From Escherichia phage CMSTMSU: 64,000 bases of DNA. The position numbers and the translations under genes were made by a program. Below, one piece after another: positions 39,980-55,050 of this stretch (the first letter of the stretch is position 1; every line of letters begins with the position of its first letter). Below the pieces are notes generated by a model that saw only the letters and a list, made by a program, of their open reading frames with translations, was not told the DNA's origin and did no database searches. The stretch lies in the sequence record MH494197.1. One strand, given 5' to 3'.

Positions 39980-41105
39980 ATGACAATTTCATTCAACAAT
40001 GGGTCAGGTGGTTCATGTAATAATTCTGGCATCAAAAGTTTAGTTATTAACGCTGCTGGACATTTAATTGTAACCTATTCCGACAATACAATCCAAGACC
40101 TAGGTCTAGTGGTTGGACAAAATGGTGCTAACGGTAGAAACTTTTATCCAAATGAGATAGGTTTTGAAGTTCCTAATGAACTCTTCCGTGTTGGTGAAGA
40201 ACTAGGGTGGTGTTATCTTAGTCTTGCAAACGGCACTAGTACTTTATATTTTAAATCAAACGATGCCCAAGAAACAATTAGTACTTGGAACCGTGTAGAG
40301 TTTGGTAAAGGTGATACTGGTGAAGCTGGTAAACCATTCCACATTGACAGTTCTGGTACGGCGTTTCCAACAACTGGTCTTTTCGATAATTACACATTCT
40401 ATAATACTGAAGATGGTAAATTATATTTCTATCAAAGCGTAACTGCAACATGGAGTGATGGTATTCCTTTCCGTGGTGAACAAGGTCTACGTGGTCGTTT
40501 CCATATTGATAGTACTGGTAGTCAATTCCCAAGCATTGATAATCTACCACAAGATTATTGCTTCTATAACACGACAGATGGTAATTTGTATTATGTCGAT
40601 ATCGTAACTACATCATCAACCCCAACTAAAGAGTGGAGTGCTGGTATCTTATTCCGTGGAAAAGACGGTGAAGAAGGTAAGCAAGGTGAACAAGGTATTC
40701 AGGGTGAACGGTAAAGATACAGTTGTTATCATCAACACTATTGATCATTCATGGACTAACGCATTGTTAGTTATTGGTACATGCCCTGCTGGATACCTAG
40801 TAACTAATATCGAAGTTGATATTAACCAAGCATATGATGAACCAGTAAATGAAATGTTTGTACGTTTCGGTGGTGAAGCACAAGAAGATATTGGTGGTAC
40901 TGTAATTGCACCTGTTGATTATTTCGATATCAACCGCAAAATGCGTTACATTGTTAACGAAACCAACCACGAAGTATCAAGTAAAGATGAAATCATTTCT
41001 TGTGTATTCAATGATTCCGTAAACAACAGTTCATTTGGTGAAATGAAGATCGTTTGTACTTTATCATGGCAAGCACCTATTCAGCCTATTCAAGATAACA
41101 TTTAA
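39980..41105 (+). CDS. Fiber-like protein with internally duplicated module and short collagen-like G-X-Y run
   Basis: Two copies of FHID..G..FP...Y.FYNT.DG.LY...FRGEQG; GKDGEEGKQGEQGIQGE; joined to ORF 40638..41105 by one frame break; AAGGGA SD before ATG 39980. Confidence 0.5.
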
Positions 41106-41116
41106 AGAGGGTTGAT

Positions 41117-43207
41117 AAATGGCAGTTTTTCCAATTTAGAAGGGACCATGATGCCAACATTCAAGTTGGGTAAACGTGGTGCTTCTATTAATTTTGTAAA
41201 CGATTCTGTCGCAATCAAAGACTTTTAGGCGAAACGTTCCTACCTGTTAAGGTGGGAACTCCTAATGACGATGATTCCGCAGTAAACGTTAGGTATCTTG
41301 AAGATAACCCAAATGCTTTATTTGGCGTACTTCCACCAACAAATGACATTGGTAAAAATAACAACACTTATTTTCAAGTTGATTCTGAGGGTATTGTTGA
41401 TATCTTTGCAAAACAAATGATGTTTGGGTAAAATCATTATACATTAATAAAAATGTCCTTTCCAGTGTTAACGGTGCTGATTATATCGGACTTATTACTG
41501 GAGGAACACTTCAACAGGCACAGTTTTACATAACACCAGAAGAGTTTGGTGCAAAGGTGATGGCATCACTGATGACACGGCGGCGTTAACGCATGTGCAG
41601 TTTATGCTAAAGAACACAAAATCCAAATTCAAGCTGGTGGTAATTATCGTATCAGAACTGCTGTTTATTTGAATGATATTCAATGGTTTGGTGGTACAAT
41701 CACTGGTAACGGTGGCACAATGGTATCGGTACTGAATAGTACAATCCAACAAGCAACATTAACAGGATGTTATTTAAAATTCTTTGGTGGTAATGGTAAA
41801 TTTTATTTTAATAAATTTATTAATATTACAAGTACTGCTGCATTTCTAATGCAAGGTATGACTGAATCAGGTACTATCGACTTCTGCTTTAATGAAATGA
41901 CACAATGTAAGTACGGTGTTCTTCAGCAAGGCACTGGTGAAAAATGACAGTTGGGCGTTATTCATACAACCACATCCATGATATATATGGTGATGCAATT
42001 GAATTGAACGTAGTCAACTCACATTACCCAGACGGATTTGTAATAGAAGGCAACTTGATTGAAAACGTAGATGGTACAAATGCACCAATTCCTCTTTCAA
42101 ACTGGGGTATTGGTATCGGTGTTGCAGGTTCTGGTCCTTATGATGTGAATGCTGATGATTCACAATATGTAAAAAATTCGTTATAAAAATAACCGCTTGT
42201 ACAATGTCCGTCAATGTATTCACGTTGAGTTGGGTAAAGACTTTAAAATTCTCAATAATGAAGTTTATCCATCAACGTTGGTATCAATTGGTACTGGTTT
42301 GACAACCGCTGGTGTAATTACTTATGGTTCTGTTGATTTTATTATTGATGGCCTATCTGGGCATCTATTAAATGATCCATCAGTAACTAACCGTATGGTT
42401 TCTATTAACTGGGGCGTAACATCTGGTAAATTTGCTGGTCCTCCACGAAACTTTAAATTATGTAATCTCCACATTCCTGAGTCGTCTATTATTGTGTATA
42501 CTTCAGGCTCTGATAATTGGCTAAATACTACTGAACTTTCTAATATTACATGTAGTAGAATTCAATGGCGTGGATTGCCGTCATCTTCCAAGTTTAATAA
42601 TATCAGTACTAAAGAACTTGATGTTATTGGACAACACCTTGCAACTGAAGGTGAAGGAGGGGCTTATATACTCGCTCTAAATATACATATACCAACTGGA
42701 CTAATTGTGTTGTTCAAGATGATTGTAACATATCAAAATATAGTTTCTCAAGAATGTATGTTGACCGTATTGACCAATCATCTAATAACTTTAAAGTAAC
42801 CACTGCAATTGATGGAACGGGTCATCGTGGACCTGTAGTAATACCTGTAGTTGAACAGTATTACGTGCCTTATGATGTTTTTCCGGTGGGAGATATTTCC
42901 CAACAGGAACAATTATCCATAAACAATCAGGTGGAAAATTTATTGTTACAGTAGGTGGTTCTTTCTTTGGTCGATATGACACAATTAGACAAACAGTTGC
43001 AGGACAAACTTATATCGAAGCATTGGGTGTATCATGGGGTGATAATCAATATGCTAAAGCTGCTGGAACCGAAATCCTAATCACAGGAGCAGGGGAAAAT
43101 GGCGAAGATTTAAAACATATATCACTAGAGCAGTTTATGTTGTTAATAATGCGTATCGTATCGATATTGCCGATCCGATTGTTACTGCTACCGCAGCAGG
43201 GCATTAT
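41117..43207 (+). CDS. Tail fiber/tailspike with pectate-lyase-type beta-helix (depolymerase-like) motif; frame-broken
   Basis: PEEFGAKGDGITDDTAAL motif typical of right-handed beta-helix polysaccharide depolymerases; N-terminus MAVFSNLEGTM restored by one homopolymer correction. Confidence 0.5.
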
Positions 43208-43262
43208 TGAAAGCTGCTCAACCAATAACATATATCACCCTATCTTAAAGGAGATTATAAAA

Positions 43263-44157
43263 ATGGCAGTTTTTCTAATTTAGAAGGAACCATGAAGAAG
43301 ACCTTCATACTTGGTAAAAATGGTGCACAAATTGCCACTAATGGTAATGTTGTTCAAATCCAGAACTACACGGGTACACAACTTCTTCCTGTTTCAGCAG
43401 GTGACCCAACCGCAAATACACACTTGGTTACATTGGGTTATTTGAATACACATAGCGGTGGTGGTGGCGGTTCCGGTATTTTACGTGGAACTATTGCACC
43501 ATCTGAATCAATCGGTGTAGATGGTGACGCTTACTTCTTAGTTGACAGTACTAATATTATTCAGATCTATATTAAAGACCTTGGTGTTTGGAAGCCTCTC
43601 CAAAGCACAACTCCGTACTGATAGTTCTTACGTTACTACTGAAATCGTTCCTGTATCGGCATTTACATTAGTTCACGGAACAACAGATCAATATACTTAT
43701 TCTTTACCTGAATCAGTACATGGTCGTGGTCCAGATATTATGGTTCAGCTACAGGGTGATCCCGGTAACATCCCACTTGACACTGTATTCCAAACTAACG
43801 TCACTGTGAGTGGTATTGGTGACATTACGATTGATGTTATTGGTCAAATTACTGAATACACAAGTGTCAAAGTCAACATCATAGGAGCAACAACAATGAC
43901 AGTACCTTATAGTAAATTAATTAATATAGCAGATTGGGTAGCATCTGGTGATGATTACACCATTACTGTTCCAGCGTCAGAACATAACCAAACACCTGAC
44001 AATTTGTATATTTCTATATATTCAAATAAAACACCGCAGTACAGCAGCATCACCATTTGAACTGGTAATAACCGAAACTCAAATTGATGCAAGTGGTAAT
44101 GTTACATTCACTTCTGATGAAGCGTTTAGTGGTAAAATAGTAATTTCCGGTAAATAA
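43263..44157 (+). CDS. Second fiber protein sharing the MAVFSNLEGTM N-terminus, divergent C-terminal part
   Basis: ORFs 43292..43621, 43542..44060, 43948..44157 chain by frame switches; leader nearly identical to 41103..41152. Confidence 0.5.
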
Positions 44158-44164
44158 AAAATAA

Positions 44165-44196
44165 TCCAGACTGCGTTCCATCGAGTCTGGATTTTT
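44165..44196 (+). terminator. Rho-independent terminator
   Basis: ATCCAGACT-loop-AGTCTGGAT hairpin followed by TTTTTAT. Confidence 0.6.
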
Positions 44197-44271
44197 ATAT
44201 TAATAACTAAATATATGTATATTAACAAGGTCAAATGTATTTTATGCTTTTGCCTATTTGGAGGGAACTAA

Positions 44272-47200
44272 ATGTACTCGATTAAAACAGATCTAGATAT
44301 AACTGGTGGTGCAACGGTTGGTAAAGATCTTCTTGTGAAAGGCGATGCAGTATTCAATAAAAATCTAACAGTTAATGGAACTGTAACTTTTGCTGACGCT
44401 GTATTCACTGCAATTGAAGCAGGAACTGTAGACATTTCATCTACACTAGATGTTGCTGGTAAAGCATCATTGAATGGTGGAATTGAAGTTCATGGTAATT
44501 CCGTAATTGGTAATTTGCCTGTTGGCTCTGATACTGCAACGATTAATTCTAATGCACAATTCCAAAGCCCAGTATCAATGGCAGGTAACCTAACACAAAC
44601 CGCTGGCACTGCTGTACTAAAAGATACCCAAGTGGCATCAATGGATGTTCTTGGAACTTCTTCATTTAAAGGTAATATTACTGCTGAAACTGGCACTACC
44701 GCAGCATTTGACAAAATAACTGCAACTGATGCAACATTCACAAACACTGCAACTACTGATATCACATCAACTGGAACTGCAAACTTTAAAGATGTGAATA
44801 TTTCCGGTACACTAGGTGGAACATTTAGTCTATCTGATGTTAATGCAACAACTCTAACTGTTTCTGGTTTAACCAGTCTACAAGGTGGTGTTACATTAGG
44901 TTCCAACATTACTGGTGTGAATAGTAGTGCAAACTTCCGTGATATTAAAATTGGTTCCAATGCTGCAAACACTAACTACCGTTTGAGCTTTAACTATTCT
45001 GCTCCAAGTCTTCGCCCAACTGTAATTCTACAGAACGAAATCCAATCAGAATTGATGTCTCCAGCTACCCTAAGTGTATTGAAAACTGCATCTTTTGGTG
45101 ATTCGTCATTATCCACTTTTGGTATTACTGGTAATGGTCTAAACAAACTAGATTACCTAACAGTATCTGGTAACTCTGTTCAAGATCCAGCAACTCCACT
45201 ATTACAAGTAACTTCAGGTAAAACTAAAGTTCATGATTTCGAAGTAACAGGAACTGCAACTATTCCTAACATTGAAAGTACTGGTACTGCTAATTTTAAT
45301 AACATCAACGTATCTGGTACACTCGGCGGTACTTTCAGTCTTGATGATATTGAAGCAAACACTCTAACTGTTTCTGGATTAACTAGCCTTGTTGGTGGTG
45401 TAACTTTAGGTGCTGATATTTCCGGTGCTAATAGTACTGCTAATTTTAAAGCAGTAAGTTTAGGACAAAACGCAGCCGATGCTAACGTTAAGTATGGTTT
45501 TGCTTATTCTGCCCGGTGCTCGTCCAACTGTAATTCTACAAAATGAAATTCAGTCTGAACTAGTATCTCCAGCAGTACTAAATGTACAAAAACTGCTACC
45601 TTTGGTGATGCATCTCTTGCAACCTATGGTATCACAGGTAACGGTCTAAACAAACTAGATTATCTATCTATTACTGGTAATGGTACACAAAGTCCAGCTA
45701 CCCCACAACTACAAGTAGCTGGTAAATCAGTACTAAATGATGTTGAATTCACTGGTACTGTAACTGGTCTAACTGTTGATGTGAGTGGACAAGATCTAAC
45801 TCCTAAATCAGTAGTTGCTGCTGAAGCAATCAAAGGTCAAACCCTTGAATCAGTTGGTCAAACCACCGTAGGAACTAACCTACAAGTTGGTGGAACTGCT
45901 AATGTTGTTGGTGCACTAACTGGTACTGCTGCTACCTTCACTGGTGATGTAAGTGCTGCTAAAGGTACTTTCAGTGGTGATGTTAGCGTTACTGGTCAAA
46001 CTGTAACTGTACGTGATTTAGTAGTAACTGGTACAACTACTGGTGTAACTGCCCAAGCTGATGTTGATGGTCTTGATATCGCCCCAAATAAAGTTGATGT
46101 TACAACAACACTATCTGTTGCTGGGGACACTACTTTAGCTGGCCTAACTGCTAGTTCAGTAACCAGTACTGGTGATGTTACTGGTGCGTCTGTATCTGGT
46201 AATACAGTAACTGCGGCTGGTGCACTATCTGGTGGTTCTCTTGCAGTAACTGGTGCTGGTTCTATGGCTTCACTAACTGTTCCAAGTATTACTGGTGACA
46301 CTACTTTTGCTAATAACGTAACTATTACTGGAACACTAACTCCGAGTAGTATAGATTTAAGCACTACTGATGTAAGTGCTGCTTCTTTAACAACTACTGG
46401 TAACGTAACTGTTGGTGGTTCTCTTGCAGTAACTGGTGCTATTGATTTGTCTGCTGCTGATGTAGTAACAAAATCAGTTAGTGCAACTAACCCAAGTACA
46501 TTTGGTGTAATTAATGCATCTTCTGTTGTCGCAACTGGTGACGTTTCAGGTGGCACTCTAACTACTACTGGTGCAGCGAAAGTAGGAACACTAACTAGTA
46601 CTGGTGTAGTATCTGGTTCGCGTTTGTCTTCTGGTACTGCAACAATCTCAACTTCTGTAACAGTTCCAACTTTACAAGCTGAAGCTGCTGGTGCTGGTAC
46701 ACTAAATCTAGCAAGTAATGTTGTCGCGGCAAAGATCTAACTGTCACTGGTGTATTCAAACCTGAAGGTGGTCTTGACCTAACAACTGTTGATATTACTG
46801 CAAACTCACTAACTACTACTGCTGATGTTAATGTTGGTGGAAACTTAGTAGTTGATGGTACTTTTGACCTAAGTGCTGCTGATGTGTCTGTGAAATCTCT
46901 TGCAAGTGCAGAGACAATTACAAGTGCTGGTGTTATTACCGTTACCGATTCAACCAATACTAGTTCGTTACCTAAAATTACTTCAACTGATGCAACACTC
47001 TTTACAGTAAATGCAGGTACTATTAATGCAACTGGCAACAGTGTACTACAAAGTGTATCAGCTACTCAAGTAACTGCAACTAGTGCTGAATTGACTGGTG
47101 TTGGTCTTGGTCTTCAAGTCGATAATGATGCAAACGTTGGTGGTGCATTATCTGTTGGTGGAATCGCAACTGTTGGTTCTTTAACAACAACTGCTGCTTC

Positions 47201-49201
47201 TCTTAATATTGCAAAAATACTGCAATCACTGGTGATTTAGCTGTATCTGGCACACTAACTGCTGGTTCAATCGACCTAAGCAATACTGATGTAACCGTTA
47301 AATCTCTTGATTCACTAGGTAACGCACACATTGCTGGTGACCTAACTGTAGATGGTGCATTCGACTTAAGTGCAACTAACCTTGTAGCTGCAAGTCTAGC
47401 AAGTACTGGTTCTACTACTGTTGGAACTGATCTAGTACTAACAACTGGTGTTGTGACTGGTAGCCCAGCTATCTCTGGTAATACAACAATCGGTGGAACT
47501 CTTGGTGTAACTGGTGCTGTTAACCTAACTGATATTGTTAATATCGGTAAGAAAGTAACAGTGAGTACTGGTGGTATTCAGGTAGTTGATGGTGGTATCA
47601 ATACTAACACAATTAACGTTTCTGGTGCTTCTACTCTAGCAGGAACTTCCATTACTGGAACTTTAGGTGTAACTGGTGCTTCTACTCTAGCAGGTGTATC
47701 TGCGACATCACTAACAGTTTCTGGTGACAGTACTGTTCAGAAACTAACTGTCCAAGGTGAATTGATCCCACAAGGTGGTCTTGACCTAAGCGGTGCAGAC
47801 ATTACTGCTAATAGTCTAACTACTGCAACAACTATCAATGCAACTGGCCTAAGTACTCTAAGTGGTGGTGTTAGTACTTCTACTGTGACTGCATCTGGTC
47901 TAGCAACTGTTGGAAGTTTAACTTCTACTGCAAACGCATCAGTTGGTGGCAATTTGGGTGTAACTGGAACTCTAGATGTTACTGGTGCTACTACTGTATC
48001 TTCACTAACAGCTACTGGTGCAGTGAAAACTGGCACAACCCTAACTGTTGGTACTCCAGTTGGTGAACAACCTGAAACTGTACAGATCATTCCAGATACT
48101 TATATTGCTGGTAAATTGCGTGTAATCGGCGGTATTAACGCTGAAATCGACGTAAGTGGTCAAACACTAGAACCATATGCAATTGAAGCTGCTGCAACAC
48201 TATCTGCTGTTGGTAACATTACTTCTGGTGCAACCATCGTTTCTAAAGCTGCAACAATTGGTGATGTTGGTTCACAAAACAACAACCTAACTGTTAATGG
48301 TAACGTAGTAACTAATGGTGACTTCACCGTTACTGGTGTACTAAATGCACAATTGAACCAAGCAGATTCCGATGTAGCTGTTAAATCTTTAACTGCAACT
48401 AATAACGTTGCGGCTGGTACTTCAATCACTGCTGGAACATCCATCACTGCATCAGGCTTACTAAAAGGTAATTCGTTAGAAGTCACCACTACTGGTTCAT
48501 TTGGTGGTGCAGTAACTATGTCAAGTGGTGCAAACATCACTGGTACTGTTGGTATCACTGCTGGTGACCTAACAGTAGGTGGTAATATCTCTGCAACTGG
48601 GACTGCTGGATTCGGTGCAACAACCGTTTCTACCATTACAACATCAGGTTTAGCTACACTTGCAAGTGCATCTGTAACTGGTGCTCTAACTGTAGGTGGT
48701 ACATTAACTGCAAATGGTAACACTGTGATTGGTGATGCTGCTGCTGATACTTTAACTGTAAATGCAACATCGACATTTAAAGAGAACGCAACATTTGATA
48801 AGAACCTAACAGTGACTGGTTCTATTAACACCACCACTGCAAACTTCACCACAAACAACATGGTAACTAAGAAATATTCTGTTATCCCTGCTAGTGTTAC
48901 TGCTTCTACTGCTGCTGTAGGTGGTACTTGGACACCAGATGGTACTACTAACGTATATCGCTTAACTCTTGACCAAAGTGTTACAATGGATTCCATCGCG
49001 GGTCTAATTGGTAGTGGTCAAGCATGTTCAGTGTATATCTATGTAACTCCATCTGTTGCTGATACTACTTTCACCTTCGGTGGTGCATACTCTGTAGTTT
49101 CTGGTACAGTAAGTGCTGTAGTTGGTCAAACAAGTATTATCCAAGTAATCTATGATGGTTTCAGTACTGTGTTTGATACCTTCGTTGCACAACGTGTATA
49201 A
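44272..49201 (+). CDS. Giant repetitive fiber protein A (about 1640 codons), Thr/Gly/Val/Ala/Ser-rich, frame-broken
   Basis: ORFs 44272..45546, 45781..46740, 46884..47240, 47453..49201 chain; GGAGGGA SD; starts MYSIKTDLD; ends ...VIYDGFSTVFDTFVAQRV. Confidence 0.6.
45781..46140 (+). repeat. Segment of fiber A nearly identical at nucleotide level to 50701..51130 in fiber B
   Basis: GTGAGTGGACAAGATCTAACTCCTAAATCAGTAGTTGCTGCTGAAGCAATCAAAGGTCAAAC... present in both genes. Confidence 0.7.
48040..49201 (+). repeat. C-terminal module of fiber A, paralogous to 53860..55050 of fiber B
   Basis: Long near-identical runs, e.g. CCTGAAACTGTACAGAT...TTCACAAAACAACAACCTAA...CATCACTGGTAC. Confidence 0.65.
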
Positions 49202-49347: not shown

Positions 49348-52300
49348 ATGTACTCGATTAAAACGGATCTTGATGTATCTGGTAATTCCACGGTAGGTAA
49401 GGATCTTTTGGTCAAAGGTAATGCAGTATTCAGTAATGACCTAACGGTTAATGGGGAAGTGTCTTTTGCTAACGCAGTATTCACTGCAATTACCGCTGGT
49501 TCTGTGAATGTCACAGGTGCATTGGATGTTGCTGGTAAGGCAACCTTATCCGGTGGTGCTGATGTTTCAGGTGCTGCGACATTTGCAGGAAACATTACTG
49601 CTGCTGACGGCACAACTGCAAAATTTGATAACTTAGAAGCTAATTCAGGATCATTTAATTCTGTTGAATCAACTGATATTACTTCAACTGGCACAGCAAC
49701 TTTTAAAGATGTAAACATTTCTGGTACACTTGGTGGTACTTTTAATCTTTCTGATATTAATGCTACAACACTTAATGTGTCTGGTGCTTCAGCACTAACT
49801 GGTTCAGTCACATTGGGTGCAAATATCACTGGTCTTGCAAGTACTGCAAACTTCCGTGATATTCGTATCGGGCCTAATGAAGAAGGTCAAGCATATAGAC
49901 TAAACTTTGGTTACACCGTTCGGACAACGACCAACCGTTCTTCTACAGAACGAAGTTCAATCCGAACTAATGTCTCCTGCTAAGTTGAATGTTCTACAAA
50001 CTGCAACATTTGGTGATTCTTCACTTTCAACTTACGGTATTACAGGTAATGGTTTAAACAAATTAGATTATGTAACTATTTCTGGTAACGCAATTCAATC
50101 ACCAACCACTCCTTTACTTGAAGTAACTAAAGGTAAAACTAAAGTTGTTGATTTAGAAGTGACTGGCGTAGCAACTATTCCTAATATCGAAAGTTCTGGT
50201 ACTGCAAACTTTAACAACATCAACGTATCTGGTACTATTGGTGGTAGTTTTGATTTAGATGATATCCAAGCAACAACATTATCAGTATCCGGTGCTTCAG
50301 CACTAACTGGTGCAGTTACATTGGGTGCAAACATCACTGGTCTAGCAAGTACTGCAACATTCAAAGCAATCAATTTGGGTCAAAATACCGCTGATGCTAA
50401 CGTTAAGCTAGGTTTTGCATATACTGCACCTAGTGCACGTCCAACAGTCTTGTTAGCAAACGAAGTTCAATCTGAACTAATGTCTCCTGCTAAGTTGAAC
50501 GTTCTACAAACTGCAACCTTCGGTTCTGCTGCACTATCTACCTATGGTATTACTGGTAATGGTCTAAACAAATTAGATTATCTAACAATTACTGGTAACG
50601 CAACACAAAACCCTGCTACTCCACAACTTCAAGTTGGTGGTAAAGCAATTCTTAATGATGTTGAATTTACAGGTACTGTAACTGGCCTAACTGTTGATGT
50701 GAGTGGACAAGATCTAACTCCTAAATCAGTAGTTGCTGCTGAAGCAATCAAAGGTCAAACTCTTGAATCAGTTGGTCAAACAACTGTAGGTTCATCTCTA
50801 CAAGTTGGTGGTACTGCAACTGTTACTGGTGCATTATCTGCTGCCGCTGGTACTTTCAGTGGTGATGTTAGTGGTTCTAAAGGTATCTTCAGTGATAGCG
50901 TATCCGGTACAAGTGCAACCTTTACTGGGGATGTTAGCGGTGATAACGCAACCTTTAGTGGCGATTTATCTGCTGTAGCTGGCACTTTCAGTGGTGATGT
51001 AACCGTAACTGGTCAAACAATCACTGTTAAAGACTTGGTAGTAACTGGAACTTCAACTGGTGTAACTGCAATCGCTGACGTTGACGGTCTTGATATTGCT
51101 CCAAACAAAGTTGATGTTACAACAACTCTATCTGTTGCTGGTGAATCAACTCTTGCTGGTGTTACAGCAACTTCAATCAATAGTACTGGTGCAATTGCAG
51201 GTACTGCAATTTCTGGCTCTACTATTACAGCAACTGGTGAAATTTCTGGTGCATCATCTGTAGTAACTGGTCTTTCTAAATCTGGTAGCGTTGAAACTGG
51301 TGCTCTAAAGGCATCTTCTGTTGAAACTGCAATCATTAGCAACACTGCTGGTGTGTCAATAACAAACAACACTTCAATTGCAGGTAATCTATCTGTAACT
51401 GGAACTGTTACCCCGTGCAATTGACCTAAGTACTACTGATATTGATGCTAAGTCTCTAACAACTACTGAAGGTGCTAACATTGGTGGTGACCTAGTTGTT
51501 GCAGGTACAGTTGATCTAAGTGCTGCTGACGTTGCTGTTAAATCTCTAACCAGTACTGGTGCAGTTATTAGTTCTGAAGGTACAGTAAGTAGTGTTCTAC
51601 CTAAACTTTCCAGTACTGAAGCTAATATTACCACAGTAACTGCAACCACTGCAAATGCTACCACACTAAATGTAACTGGTACATCAACTCTAGCTGGTGT
51701 TAACGCTTCTGGTGCTATTACTTCTGCAACTAACATTACCGCTACTGGTGTATTAAAGGTGCATCTGTTGAAACTGCGTCAATCAGCAATGCTGATGGTG
51801 TAGCAATTAACAATAACACTACAATCACTGGTAATTTGGACGTATCTGGGACATTGACCCGTGCAATTGACCTAAGTACTACTGATATTAGTTCTAAGTC
51901 TCTAACCACAACTGAAGGTGCTACAATTGGTGGCGATCTTGTGGTAGCAGGTACTGTTGATCTAAGTGCTGCTGATGTGTCGGTGAAATCTCTTGCAAGT
52001 GCAGAGACAATTACAAGTGCTGGTGTTATTACAGTTTCGGATACAGTGAATTCTAGCACTCTACCAAAACTAATTACTACTGATGCAACTATTGGTGCTG
52101 TCCATGCAGCTACTATTGAAACAACTGGTTCAAGTACACTAAAACAAGTATCTGCTACTGAAGTAACAGCTACAAGTATTGTACTAAATTCAGTTGGTGA
52201 AGGTTTACGTGTTGACAATAATGCAAACATTAATGGTATATTAAGTGTTAATAATATTACTTCTACCAATGATACTATTGCAATTGCGAAAAGTGCTGCT

Positions 52301-55050
52301 ATTACTGGTGATCTGACCGTATCTGGAACTGTTACCCCGGTGCAATTGACCTAAGTACTACCGATATTAGTTCTAAATCCTAAGTACTACTGAAGGTGCT
52401 ACAATTGGTGGTGACCTAGTTGTTAATGGTTCAATTGATTTAAGTTCTTCCAATGTTTCAGCAATTACCCTTGCTAGTTCTGGTAATACTACCGTTGGTG
52501 GTAACCTAGTACTAACAACTGGTGTTGTGACTGGCAGCCCATCTGTATCTGGTAACCTTTCAGTTGCAGGTACTGCGGCAGTAACTGGTGCAACTACCTA
52601 ACTGATATCGTAAATATCGGTAAGAAAGTAACTGTAAGCACTGGTGGTATTCAAGTAGTTGCAGGTGGTATTAATACCGACGCTATATTAGTATCCGGTG
52701 ATACAACTTTAAACAACACTACTGTAAACACTACCTTAAATGTAACTGGTCAAAGTACAGTTGCTGCACTAAGTGCTGCATCTTTGAATGTATCTGGTGA
52801 TAGTACTGTTCAAAACTAACAGTTGAAGGTGAATTGGTTCCACAAGGTGGTATCGACCTAACTGGTGCAGATATTTCTGCTAATAGTCTTGCAACTGCTT
52901 CAACAATCACTGCAACTGGACTAAGCACACTAAGTGGTGGTGTAAGTACTACTAATGTTACTGCATCTGGTACAGTGAATGCTGGTAGTTTGGATGTTAC
53001 TAACAACGCAACCGTTGGTGGTAATTTGGGTGTAACTGGTTCATTAACTTCTGGACCATTGAGTGTAACAGGCATTGCGAATATTACTGGTGTAACAACT
53101 GTTGGTTCATTGGTTTCCGGTGCTGTATCTGGTAGTACTGGTACATTTAGTTCAACATTAGGTGTAACTGGTGCAGCTACATTTGACAATGACGTAACTG
53201 TTGAAGGTGTATTCACCCCAGCAGGTGGTTTAGACCTAACAACTTCTGATATTACAGCTAAGAGTTTGTCAGTATCTGAAACTATTCACTCTGATGGTGC
53301 AGCTTCCTTTGGTGGTAACACAACAGTAGGTGGTACATTGGGTGTAACTGGTGCAGTAACTGCTCCATCGGCAACCCTAAGCGGTACTGGTACTGCACTA
53401 GCAGTAACTAATAATGCAACTATTGGTGGTACATTGGGTGTAACTGGTCAAGCAACACTTGGTTCTATAGTAACTTCTGGTGTATCTGCAACAAGTGGCT
53501 CTTTCAGTACTACTCTTGGCGTTACTGGTGCTGCGACATTTGGAAACGATGTAACTGTAGTTGGAACACTAACTCCGGTAGCTTAGATCTAACTGGTGCA
53601 GATATCTCTGCTAAAACACTAACTCTATCTGAAACATTAAATGCGACAGGTAATACTACCCTTGGTGGAACATTAGGTGTAACTGGTTTAGCAACAATTG
53701 GTGGAACACTAACGTCTGGTGCAGTAACTGCTCCATCTGCAACCTTGAATGGTTCAGGAACTGGTCTAGCAGTAACTAACAACGCAACCGTTGGTGGTAC
53801 ATTAGGTGTAGTTGGTCAAACAACACTAGGTTCTGTTAAAACTGGTGCAACTCTAACAGTTGGTACACCATTAGGTGAGCAGCCTGAAACTGTACAGATT
53901 ATGCCAGACACTTATATTGCTGGTAAACTACGTGTTGAGGGTGGTATTAACGCAGATATCGATGTTGGTGGACAAACACTAGAACCGTTTGCAGTAATAG
54001 CATCTGATTCTTTATCTTCTGCTGGTAATATTACTGCTGGTGCGGCAATTATTTCAAGTTCTGCAACAATTGGTGAAGTCGGTTCACAAAACAACAACCT
54101 AATCGTTAATGGTAACGTTGTAAACAACGGTAACTTCACTGTTACTGGTGTACTAAATGCACAATTGAACCAAGCAGATTCCGATGTAGCTGTTAAGTCT
54201 TTGACTGCAACTAACAACGTAGCTGCTGGAACCACATTAAGTGCAGGTACTGCAATTACTGCTGGTACTTCCATCACTGCAACTGGATTACTTAAAGGTA
54301 ATACTTTATTACTACTACTGGTTCATTTGGTGGTGCAGTAACTATGTCAAGTGGTGCAAACATCACTGGTACAGTGGGTATTACTGCTGGTAACCTAACA
54401 GTGGGTGGTGATATCTCTGCAACTGGCACTGCTGGATTCGGTGCAACAACCGTTTCTACAATTACAACATCAGGTTTGGCTACACTTGCAAGTACATCCG
54501 TTACTGGTAACGCAACAGTAGGTGGAACACTAGCAGTAACAGGAGCACTAACTGCGAATGGTAACGTAACATTAGGTGACGCAGCGGCTGACGTTCTAAC
54601 CGTTAATGCAACTTCATCATTTAAAGAAAATGCTGTGTTTGATAAGGCAGTAACAGTAACTGGTGAACTAACCACTACTAATGCTAACTTAACTACTACA
54701 ACAGTAACTACCAAAAGTATGATGTAATCCCAACTCAAGTTACATCATCAGTAATTGCTCCAACCGGAACATGGACTCCAGATGGTACAAGTAACGTGTA
54801 CTTCATCACTCTAGACCAAGATACCACGTTGGCTCCAATTACTGGCCTAATTGGTGGCGGTAAAGCTGCATCAGTATACATCTATGTTAAACAAGATACA
54901 ACTGGTAACAGAAACTTTACAACTGATGGTACTTATGCTGTTGTTGATGGTGAACTAAACAAAACTGCTGGTAGCGTGACCATTTACCAAGTAATTTATG
55001 ATGGTGTAAGTCCAGTTACTGATTTGTTCATTGCACAACGTACTGCTTAA
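49348..55050 (+). CDS. Giant repetitive fiber protein B (about 1900 codons), paralog of fiber A, frame-broken
   Basis: ORFs 49306..49983, 49907..51424, 51836..52354, 52834..53586, 53745..54341, 54344..54727, 54796..55050 chain; AGGAGGGA SD; starts MYSIKTDLD; ends ...VIYDGVSPVTDLFIAQRTA. Confidence 0.6.

What the first reader, a model, noticed from the sequence alone, without database searches (positions are those of the whole stretch)
41103..44157. Pair of fiber genes sharing a conserved leader and N-terminus, one with a depolymerase-like motif
Both genes are preceded by an almost identical 45-nt leader, ATGGCAGTTTTTC[C/T]AATTTAGAAGG[G/A]ACCATG. Adding one T to the T5 run makes both begin MAVFSNLEGTM, after which they diverge. 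The first carries PEEFGAKGDGITDDTAAL, a hallmark of pectate-lyase-fold tailspike depolymerases. Either the same homopolymer is miscalled in both copies, or a conserved upstream mini-ORF (MAVFPI/MAVFLI) with SD precedes the true ATG.
Basis: partly seen in the sequence, partly recalled or inferred. Interest (0 to 1): 0.6.

Follow-up and report, generated by a model that had tools for sequence, protein, structure and literature searches.

The report
Sequencing-error frameshifts in two tail genes
The odd "leader plus mini-ORF" in front of two phage tail genes is a nanopore sequencing error: a run of six T's was read as five in both copies. The genes underneath are an already-known colanic-acid-degrading tailspike and a conserved virion protein that share the same N-terminal module.

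Summary
The repeated 32-nt string with a T5 run is really present at 41119-41150 and 43263-43294. T5 is an under-call of T6. Ten gene copies from seven related jumbo phages read MA(V/I)FSN(L/F)EGTM in one frame from the upstream ATG. Across the window there are 225 deletions against 3 insertions relative to phage Ecwhy_1. 39 of 42 A/T 6-mers are shortened and 46 of 46 CCWGG (Dcm) sites are miscalled. Two error-truncated ORFs exactly match proteins of Escherichia phage CMSTMSU (MH494197). That genome was published as a MinION/Albacore/Canu assembly with no polishing step described.

After restoring 12 and 5 bases:
- Gene 1 (41119-43248) is a 713-aa tailspike. Residues 96-712 match the solved phi92 gp150 colanidase (PDB 6E0V, E=1e-233).
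- Gene 2 (43263-44157) is a 299-aa virion protein conserved in all Rak2-like jumbo phages.

The two share a module of about 105 aa, not just 11 aa. The colanidase is an Asteriusvirus-specific chimera of that module with a phi92-type enzyme body. There is no upstream mini-ORF. The finding is ordinary and low in interest. The one modest point is the module swap and an N-terminal peptide that is nearly invariant across genera.

The parts
41119..43248 (+). Gene 1: colanidase tailspike, 713 aa after 12 missing bases are restored. It is the orthologue of Ecwhy1_205 and 121Q gp573. In the window it is broken into many short ORFs.
   Evidence: Reference-guided correction gives 712/713 identity to Ecwhy1_205. 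PDB 6E0V phi92 gp150 matches at E=1e-233 over residues 96-712. PHROG 6117 'colanic acid degradation' matches at E=2.5e-252. ORF fragmentation is shown.
41126..41130 (+). T5 run in gene 1 (codons 3-5). The true length is T6, and the under-call creates the false MAVFPI* mini-ORF.
   Evidence: T6 in Ecwhy_1, vB_Ec-M-J, EC.P1 and Turkey5. 121Q has GTA TTT TCT in the same frame. 39 of 42 reference A/T 6-mers are shortened in the window.
41119..41430 (+). Shared N-terminal module of gene 1 (about residues 1-105), homologous to the N-terminus of gene 2.
   Evidence: blastp of g1 against g2 aligns residues 1-104 with 1-110. Alignment A1 has 22 invariant columns. phi92-type colanidases lack this part; their alignments start at residue 96.
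41536..41590 (+). PEEFGAKGDGITDDTAAVNA motif at the start of the beta-helix/pectate-lyase-like domain. In the window it is interrupted by two single-base deletions (A at about 41552, G at about 41584).
   Evidence: It aligns to FGAIGDGVTDDTQA of 6E0V. Pfam PF12708 scores 17 bits, below the cut-off of 27.
43263..44157 (+). Gene 2: 299-aa conserved virion structural protein, the orthologue of Ecwhy1_206 and 121Q gp572. It is broken by 3 deletion events totalling 5 bases.
   Evidence: 298/299 identity to Ecwhy1_206 after correction. PHROG 10468 matches at E=4e-92. 66 homologues were found. The AF2 model has pLDDT 80.9, with the N-terminal module followed by two beta-sandwich domains.
43270..43274 (+). 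T5 run in gene 2. The true length is T6, and the under-call creates the false MAVFLI* mini-ORF.
   Evidence: T6 in all gene-2 orthologues examined, including RaK2, fHe-Yen9-04, CBB and XaC1.
41104..41111 (+). Shine-Dalgarno-like AAAGAGGG, 7 nt upstream of the true start of gene 1.
   Evidence: Read directly from the sequence. Relatives annotate the CDS from this ATG.
43247..43253 (+). Shine-Dalgarno AAAGGAG upstream of the true start of gene 2. It overlaps the last base of gene 1's stop codon.
   Evidence: GGAG is conserved upstream of the gene-2 orthologues.
44163..44193 (+). Hairpin followed by a T-run directly after gene 2. It is a probable intrinsic terminator closing the gene 1/gene 2 transcription unit.
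   Evidence: RNA fold gives -15.8 kcal/mol, z=-6.4, with 0 of 200 shuffles as stable. The T-run is T6 in relatives. The simple terminator scan missed it.
39980..41105 (+). Upstream 'tail protein' gene (orthologue of Ecwhy1_204 and 121Q gp574), also fragmented. It lies upstream of the gene-2 orthologue in all Rak2-like phages examined, immediately so in all but XaC1.
   Evidence: The phAPEC6 orthologue gp253 was detected in virions with 65.6% coverage (PMC7247149).

Best explanation
The T5 runs, the MAVFPI*/MAVFLI* mini-ORFs and the apparent 'leader' are consensus errors of an unpolished Oxford Nanopore assembly. The window matches Escherichia phage CMSTMSU (MH494197). In the real phage both runs are T6, and both genes start at the upstream ATG with MAVFSNLEGTM.

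Gene 1 is a 713-aa tailspike. Its N-terminal module of about 105 aa is specific to Rak2-like jumbo phages. That module is fused to a phi92 gp150-type beta-helix colanidase, which degrades the colanic-acid exopolysaccharide of E. coli.

Gene 2 is a 299-aa virion protein found in all Rak2-like jumbo phages. It has the same N-terminal module followed by two Ig-like beta-sandwich domains.

What is shown: the artefact, the homologies and the synteny.

What is inferred: the shared module is the part that docks both proteins to the same kind of site on the tail or baseplate, and the Asteriusvirus lineage gained a colanidase by joining a copy of that module to an imported enzyme body.
For: - Close relatives: three relatives at 98.7-98.8% identity have T6 at both sites and annotate both CDSs from the upstream ATG.
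- Distant orthologues: more distant Asteriusviruses and four other lineages (Alcyoneusvirus, Eneladusvirus, Mimasvirus and the unclassified phage XaC1) keep the same frame. 121Q gp573 has GTA TTT TCT, a synonymous break of the run.
- Whole-window census against Ecwhy_1: 225 deletion events against 3 insertions. 39 of 42 A/T 6-mers and 70 of 148 A/T 5-mers are shortened. 46 of 46 CCWGG sites are altered, against 1-5% for three control 5-mers and 6 of 27 for GGWCC.
- Source record: window ORFs 43292-43621 (109 aa) and 43542-44060 match GenBank proteins AXC39373.1 and AXC39374.1 of phage CMSTMSU exactly, including their error-derived ends.
- Published method: MinION FLO-MIN106, Albacore 2.1.3 and Canu, with no polishing step described (PMC6256653).
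- Known error class: ONT consensus errors of that era concentrate at Dcm motifs and homopolymers (PMC6591954).
- Corrected ORFs are 712/713 and 298/299 identical to Ecwhy_1 proteins.
- Gene 1 residues 96-712 match PDB 6E0V at E=1e-233. 6E0V is described as a colanidase and beta-helix hydrolase (PMC11126041; PMC10190282).
- phi92 gp150 is 804 aa, and the homology starts at about its residue 189.
- Gene order: tail protein upstream (adjacent except in XaC1), then the gene-2 orthologue, then a large gene annotated as tail fibre in fHe-Yen9-04 and CBB. The colanidase is inserted only in Asteriusvirus.
Against: - No raw reads or second-technology data for this isolate were examined. T6 is inferred from relatives and from the error statistics.
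- Virion association of gene 1 and gene 2 is not established here. In the phAPEC6 virion proteome the neighbours gp253 and gp256 were detected, but the proteins inferred by gene order to be the colanidase and gene 2 (gp254, gp255) are not listed.
- The docking role of the N-terminal module is inference. It has no Pfam family and no significant structural match.
- Colanidase activity has not been tested for any Asteriusvirus protein as far as I found.
Confidence: 0.96

Rival explanations
1. A conserved upstream mini-ORF (MAVFPI / MAVFLI) with its own stop precedes each gene and regulates it. The true start is the downstream ATG (Met11), served by the AAGGG/AAGGA motif.
For: As written, the window gives a 6-codon ORF, then a stop, then an SD-like AAGG(G/A) 4-5 nt before an ATG, in both copies.
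Against: - No relative has the stop. All ten gene copies from seven phages read through in one frame.
- The SD-like motif is made of the codons of the near-invariant L-E-G-T.
- A canonical SD sits upstream of the first ATG.
- 93% of 6-mer A/T runs in this window are under-called.
Confidence: 0.01
2. The T-run is a real, biologically used slippery or phase-variable tract, through programmed frameshifting or tract-length variation that switches both fibre genes on and off together.
For: A T6 run lies at codons 3-5 of both genes and is conserved across genera, including at synonymous positions.
Against: - No tract-length variation was seen among the ten gene copies examined in seven phages.
- 121Q gp573 lacks the run but keeps the frame.
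- The shifted frame ends after 2 codons with no alternative product.
- T5 in the window is fully explained by the global error profile.
- T6 is shorter than tracts known to slip at useful rates. This last point is from general knowledge and was not tested here.
Confidence: 0.02
3. The phage really carries many frameshift mutations: a degenerate or defective genome with pseudogenised tail genes.
For: Almost every structural gene in the window is fragmented.
Against: - The phage was isolated as a lytic plaque former (PMC6256653).
- The errors are one-directional and depend on run length.
- They hit 46 of 46 Dcm motifs, which is a signature of the sequencing technology and not of mutation (PMC6591954).
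Confidence: 0.01
4. The near-identity of the first 33 nt of the two genes reflects recent gene conversion between the paralogues, not selection on the peptide.
For: 30 of 32 nt are identical between the copies, while the rest of the module is only about 40% identical at the protein level.
Against: The same 11 codons are almost identical in single-copy orthologues of RaK2, fHe-Yen9-04, CBB and XaC1, which have no second copy to convert against. Long-term constraint therefore explains the identity better.
Confidence: 0.1

Closest known systems
Phage phi92 gp150 colanidase tailspike (PDB 6E0V/6E0W; PHROG 6117)
   Same: Residues 96-712 of gene 1 align end to end with the solved chain (E=1e-233; 56% identity by tblastn). 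This includes the FGAxGDGxTDDT start of the beta-helix domain.
   Different: phi92 gp150 is 804 aa with an unrelated N-terminal part of about 188 aa. Gene 1 instead has the 95-105-aa module of Rak2-like phages.
Asteriusvirus orthologues: Ecwhy1_205/206, 121Q gp573/gp572, and the same pair in about 30 deposited jumbo coliphage and Salmonella phage genomes
   Same: Same gene pair, order, lengths (713/299 aa) and N-termini, at 77-99.9% identity. They are already annotated as 'colanic acid-degrading protein' and 'virion structural protein'.
   Different: In the window both genes are broken by sequencing errors. The shared N-terminal module is not noted in the annotations I saw.
Gene-2 family of Rak2-like jumbo phages (PHROG 10468; RaK2 ORF061w, fHe-Yen9-04 g219, CBB gp227, GAP32 gp221)
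   Same: Same N-terminal module with the near-invariant MA(V/I)FSNLEGTM, and the same position downstream of the 'tail protein' gene.
   Different: RaK2 ORF061w is the module alone (115 aa). Genera other than Asteriusvirus have one detectable copy, not two.
Modular tailspikes and receptor-binding proteins with a conserved N-terminal anchor and exchangeable enzymatic body (for example CBA120 TSP1-4, G7C gp63.1/gp66, K64-1/RaK2 depolymerase sets). This comparison is from general knowledge and was not tested here.
   Same: A conserved N-terminal part is shared between otherwise unrelated virion proteins, and the C-terminal depolymerase is shared with an unrelated phage (phi92).
   Different: The partner and docking site of this module are unknown. 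The module has no Pfam family and no significant structural match.
Oxford Nanopore R9.4 consensus errors at homopolymers and Dcm (CCWGG) motifs (Wick et al. 2019, PMC6591954)
   Same: One-directional homopolymer deletions that rise with run length, and errors at every CCWGG site. The published method of the matching record was MinION, Albacore 2.1.3 and Canu.
   Different: Nothing differs. This is a textbook case.

Membership tests
Nanopore homopolymer/Dcm consensus artefact | Indels against close relatives go in one direction (deletions) and sit in homopolymers, with frequency rising with run length. | tested here: met
   225 deletions against 3 insertions. A/T runs shortened: 0/1826 (3-mers), 10/451 (4-mers), 70/148 (5-mers), 39/42 (6-mers), 7/8 (7-mers).
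Nanopore homopolymer/Dcm consensus artefact | Errors concentrated at the Dcm methylation motif CCWGG. | tested here: met
   46 of 46 CCWGG sites are altered, against 1/80, 4/106 and 5/101 for three control 5-mers and 6/27 for GGWCC. The known behaviour is described in PMC6591954.
Nanopore homopolymer/Dcm consensus artefact | The sequence derives from an unpolished nanopore-only assembly. | tested here: met
   Two error-truncated window ORFs match AXC39373.1 and AXC39374.1 of phage CMSTMSU exactly. Its paper reports MinION, Albacore 2.1.3 and Canu only. The record itself could not be fetched.
phi92 gp150-type colanidase tailspike | Full-length sequence homology to the solved catalytic body (6E0V). 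| tested here: met
   E=1e-233, with query residues 96-712 aligned to chain residues 11-623. PHROG 6117 matches at E=2.5e-252.
phi92 gp150-type colanidase tailspike | Right-handed beta-helix / pectate-lyase-like fold. | tested here: inconclusive
   No model of gene 1 was made. The fold is inferred from the 6E0V homology and from the literature description 'hydrolase/colanidase; beta helix' (PMC10190282). Pfam PF12708 scores only 17 bits against a cut-off of 27.
phi92 gp150-type colanidase tailspike | Enzymatic degradation of colanic acid. | not testable with these tools
   Needs the recombinant protein and a halo or reducing-sugar assay on colanic-acid-overproducing E. coli.
phi92 gp150-type colanidase tailspike | Presence in the virion as a tail appendage. 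| not testable with these tools
   In the phAPEC6 virion proteome the flanking gp253 and gp256 are listed, but gp254 and gp255 are not. The numbering is inferred from gene order and molecular weights.
Rak2-like conserved virion protein (PHROG 10468) | Full-length homology and conserved position downstream of the 'tail protein' gene. | tested here: met
   PHROG 10468 matches at E=4e-92 over residues 1-299. 66 homologues at 45-99% identity. Gene order is shown.
Regulatory upstream ORF / leader peptide | The short ORF with its own stop codon is conserved in relatives. | tested here: not met
   No stop in any of the 10 gene copies from 7 related phages. All read through as one ORF.
Programmed frameshift / phase-variable homopolymer | Tract-length polymorphism among isolates, or a productive alternative frame. 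| tested here: not met
   The run is T6 in nine of the ten copies and is interrupted synonymously in 121Q gp573. The shifted frame stops after 2 codons.

The most novel reading that the evidence does not exclude
The first 11 codons (ATG GCA GTT TTT TCT AAT TTA GAA GGA ACC ATG) are almost identical at the DNA level, synonymous sites included, in both paralogues and in orthologues from Klebsiella, Yersinia, Pectobacterium and Xanthomonas jumbo phages whose proteins are otherwise only 50-60% identical. This could mark a functional nucleotide-level element. One possibility is a recombination handle that lets new receptor-binding bodies, such as the phi92-type colanidase, be grafted onto the Rak2-like docking module. 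Another is a translation-initiation signal, acting on top of an uncharacterised docking peptide that is nearly invariant across these genera.
Probability: 0.15. Interest if true: 0.35.

Novelty: already known. Interest (0 to 1): 0.08.

Why it matters
It matters mainly as a warning. This window comes from an unpolished nanopore-only assembly, so homopolymer-linked oddities in it should be presumed artefacts until checked against relatives. That includes frameshifts, mini-ORFs, split genes and apparently slippery runs.

Biologically, the corrected locus shows an ordinary but tidy case of receptor-binding-protein modularity. Asteriusviruses carry a colanic-acid depolymerase built from a lineage-specific N-terminal module and an enzyme body shared with the unrelated phage phi92. 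That could guide engineering of jumbo-phage tailspikes.

Tried and rejected
- Pfam on both corrected proteins gave only sub-threshold hits: PF12708 at 17 bits and PF12218 at 16.5 bits on gene 1, and nothing meaningful on gene 2 or on the N-terminal module.
- PDB sequence search with gene 2 found no match.
- The simple terminator scan missed the hairpin after gene 2. Direct folding found it.
- Fetching MH494197 from the phage collection failed, and so did the exact-protein contig look-up. Identity of the window with CMSTMSU therefore rests on two exact protein matches.
- I did not run a structure prediction of gene 1, because a solved homologue at E=1e-233 makes it redundant.
- The uORF, programmed-slippage and real-pseudogene readings were considered and rejected, for the reasons given under the rival explanations.
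Full report
**1. What is in the sequence**

The string ATGGCAGTTTTTC[C/T]AATTTAGAAGG[G/A]ACCATG occurs exactly twice in the 64-kb window, at 41119-41150 and 43263-43294 on the + strand. The two copies differ at 2 positions, and no match is expected by chance. Both copies contain a T5 run. As written, both translate to a 6-codon ORF (MAVFPI*/MAVFLI*) followed by an ATG.

So the core observation is real. Three details are not:
- The shared string is 32 nt, not 45.
- The region is not otherwise intact. The ORF list between 39.9 and 44.2 kb is a mosaic of 30-200-aa fragments in alternating frames.
- The quoted motif PEEFGAKGDGITDDTAAL does not exist in any one frame of the window.

**2. The window is a jumbo coliphage, and its relatives have T6**

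The region is 97.4-98.8% identical to nine Asteriusvirus (Rak2/121Q-like) jumbo coliphages, and their matching stretch is about 22 nt longer.

In Ecwhy_1, vB_Ec-M-J and EC.P1 the two genes are annotated from the upstream ATG. Except for the split in vB_Ec-M-J noted in section 7, they are a 713-aa 'colanic acid-degrading protein / colanidase tailspike' and a 299-aa 'virion structural protein'.

A four-way alignment shows about 20 one- or two-base gaps in 41000-44300. Every one is a deletion in the window. They include T6->T5 at both leaders.

More distant Asteriusviruses (121Q, Turkey5) and single-copy orthologues in RaK2, Yersinia phage fHe-Yen9-04, Pectobacterium phage CBB and Xanthomonas phage XaC1 all read MA(V/I)FSN(L/F)EGTM in one frame from the same ATG. 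Only the first gene of Turkey5 differs, beginning MSVFSN. 121Q gp573 has GCA GTA TTT TCT, which breaks the T-run synonymously and keeps the frame. That is direct comparative evidence for the coding frame and against a conserved mini-ORF.

**3. The cause is a technology-specific error profile, and the source record is identifiable**

I aligned the whole window to Ecwhy_1. The result was 503 substitutions, 225 deletion events and only 3 insertion events. Two of those three insertions, 3 and 18 nt long, lie in a fibre gene and preserve the frame.

Deletion frequency rises steeply with A/T run length:

| A/T run length | Shortened in window |
|---|---|
| 3-mers | 0/1826 |
| 4-mers | 10/451 |
| 5-mers | 70/148 |
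| 6-mers | 39/42 |
| 7-mers | 7/8 |

In addition, 46 of 46 CCWGG sites are altered, against 1-5% for three control pentamers and 6 of 27 for GGWCC. Homopolymer under-calls plus Dcm-motif errors are the documented consensus-error signature of ONT R9.4-era basecallers (Wick et al. 2019, PMC6591954).

Two error-truncated window ORFs are exact matches, including their frameshift-derived ends, to GenBank proteins AXC39373.1 and AXC39374.1 of Escherichia phage CMSTMSU, a 386,442-bp record flagged UNVERIFIED_ORG. These are the 109-aa ORF at 43292-43621 and the ORF at 43542-44060. The genome announcement states that CMSTMSU (MH494197) was sequenced on MinION FLO-MIN106, basecalled with Albacore 2.1.3 and assembled with Canu. 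It describes no polishing step (PMC6256653).

With a 93% per-site under-call rate for 6-mers, T5 at both leaders is the expected outcome, not a coincidence.

**4. The genes after correction**

I filled the window's gaps with the reference bases. Gene 1 needed 12 bases, and gene 2 needed 5 bases in 3 events, two of them at CCAGG sites. This gives single ORFs of 713 aa (41119-43248) and 299 aa (43263-44157). They are 712/713 and 298/299 identical to the Ecwhy_1 proteins.

Gene 1:
- Residues 96-712 match the solved structure of phage phi92 gp150 (PDB 6E0V) at E=1e-233 over the whole chain. The PEEFGAKGDGITDDTAAVNA motif falls inside this match.
- PHROG 6117 'colanic acid degradation' matches at E=2.5e-252.
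- The literature calls 6E0V the 'tailspike colanidase gp150' and a beta-helix hydrolase (PMC11126041; PMC10190282).
- Pfam PF12708 is hit only below threshold, 17 bits against 27.
The beta-helix fold is taken from the homologue and was not modelled here.

Gene 2:
- It belongs to PHROG 10468 'virion structural protein' (E=4e-92). It has 66 homologues in the large protein database and no solved relative.
- An AF2 model (pLDDT 80.9) shows the N-terminal module followed by two well-predicted beta-sandwich domains, at residues 125-208 and 217-298.

**5. The shared N-terminus is a module of about 105 residues, and the colanidase is a chimera**

The two proteins align over residues 1-104 and 1-110. 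Across ten sequences, 22 columns are invariant. They include M1, F4, S5, N6, E8, G9, T10, M11, F15, G18, K19, G21, P43, Y85 and W104.

A tblastn search with the module finds two places per genome in E. coli and Salmonella Asteriusviruses. It finds one place in every other Rak2-like genus.

In those other genera the 'tail protein' gene lies upstream of the gene-2 orthologue. It is adjacent except in XaC1, where one small reverse-strand gene intervenes. A large downstream gene follows, annotated as a tail fibre protein in fHe-Yen9-04 and CBB. The colanidase sits between the tail protein and gene 2 only in Asteriusvirus. In RaK2 the orthologue (ORF061w) is the module alone, at 115 aa.

Conversely, phi92-type colanidases align only from residue 96 onward. 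phi92 gp150 is 804 aa with an unrelated N-terminal part of about 188 aa.

What is shown: gene 1 combines the module of the Rak2-like lineage with an enzyme body shared with Justusliebigvirus and other coliphages.

What is inferred: the module is the virion-docking part, so both proteins attach to the same kind of site. Shared N-terminal anchors are usual in tailspike systems; that is general knowledge and was not tested here.

A caveat on virion association comes from the phAPEC6 virion proteome (PMC7247149). The neighbours gp253 and gp256 were detected. The proteins that should be the colanidase and gene 2 by gene order are not in the list of 62.

**6. Other anatomy**

Each gene has a Shine-Dalgarno sequence about 7 nt upstream of the true ATG: AAAGAGGG at 41104-41111 and AAAGGAG at 43247-43253. 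The gaps between genes are 13-14 nt.

A stable hairpin plus T-run follows gene 2 at 44163-44193 (-15.8 kcal/mol, z=-6.4). This suggests that the unit ends there.

**7. Rivals, novelty and score**

The uORF, programmed-slippage and real-pseudogene readings all fail. The relatives contradict them, and the errors are global, one-directional and motif-specific.

Gene conversion is a weak explanation for the identical first 33 nt. Single-copy genomes in other genera carry nearly the same 33 nt.

One point is left over and only partly followed up. In invariant amino-acid columns, codons 4-21 show a dominant codon in 8-10 of 10 sequences, against 5-7 of 10 for most later columns. This could be a 5'-end constraint. 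The sample is ten related sequences and is not conclusive.

In vB_Ec-M-J the colanidase is annotated as two CDSs. That record has one extra A in the A-run at about window 42170.

Verdict: the anomaly is a sequencing artefact, and the genes are already known and annotated in about 30 related genomes. Interest is 0.08.

Noticed in passing
whole window (for example 42884, 43614, 44035): All 46 CCWGG sites present in the Ecwhy_1 reference are miscalled in the window, mostly as 1-2-base deletions. This implies the phage DNA carried Dcm 5-methylcytosine when it was sequenced, so it was grown on a dcm+ host. Any CCWGG-linked 'mutation' in this record is suspect.
   Followed up: yes
window 41119-41181 and 43263-43325; L008-L011 positions 3001/4001 onward: The first 11 codons are nearly identical at the DNA level across five lineages of jumbo phages (four named genera plus XaC1), synonymous sites included. 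Dominant-codon share in invariant columns is 8-10 of 10 for codons 4-21, against 5-7 of 10 for most later columns. Unexplained; it may be a 5'-end constraint or a recombination handle.
   Followed up: partly
L002 3121-5263 (vB_Ec-M-J, OQ718158), about window 42170: In vB_Ec-M-J the colanidase is annotated as two CDSs (EcMJ_308 and EcMJ_307). That record has one extra A in the A-run (A8 against A7 in Ecwhy_1 and EC.P1), so another deposited genome probably has a homopolymer error in the same gene.
   Followed up: partly
L008 4001-4348 (RaK2 ORF061w): The RaK2 orthologue of gene 2 is only 115 aa. It is the shared N-terminal module alone, followed after 165 nt by a 510-aa hypothetical protein. 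The module can therefore exist as a stand-alone virion protein, or the RaK2 gene is split.
   Followed up: no
window 44755-47967 versus 49672-53039, and 48026-49044 versus 53838-54887: The two very long downstream fibre genes (Ecwhy1_207/208 orthologues, annotated 'long tail fiber proximal subunit') cross-match each other at 69-78% DNA identity, so they are a diverged tandem duplication. The real in-frame indels against Ecwhy_1 (an 18-nt and a 3-nt insertion at 54528 and 54377) also lie here.
   Followed up: no
window 44163-44193: A strong hairpin (-15.8 kcal/mol) followed by a T-run lies right after gene 2. It is a probable intrinsic terminator, and the simple scan missed it.
   Followed up: yes
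phAPEC6 proteome (PMC7247149, Table 1): The published virion mass spectrometry of the related phage phAPEC6 lists gp253 and gp256. It does not list the two genes between them, which by gene order are the colanidase and gene 2. Their presence in the virion is therefore not yet documented there.
   Followed up: partly
window 6003 and 37625: The longest reference homopolymers are the most compressed: T11 becomes T5 at about 6003, and A8 becomes A5 at about 37625. Intergenic and regulatory A/T tracts in this record are therefore also unreliable.
   Followed up: partly
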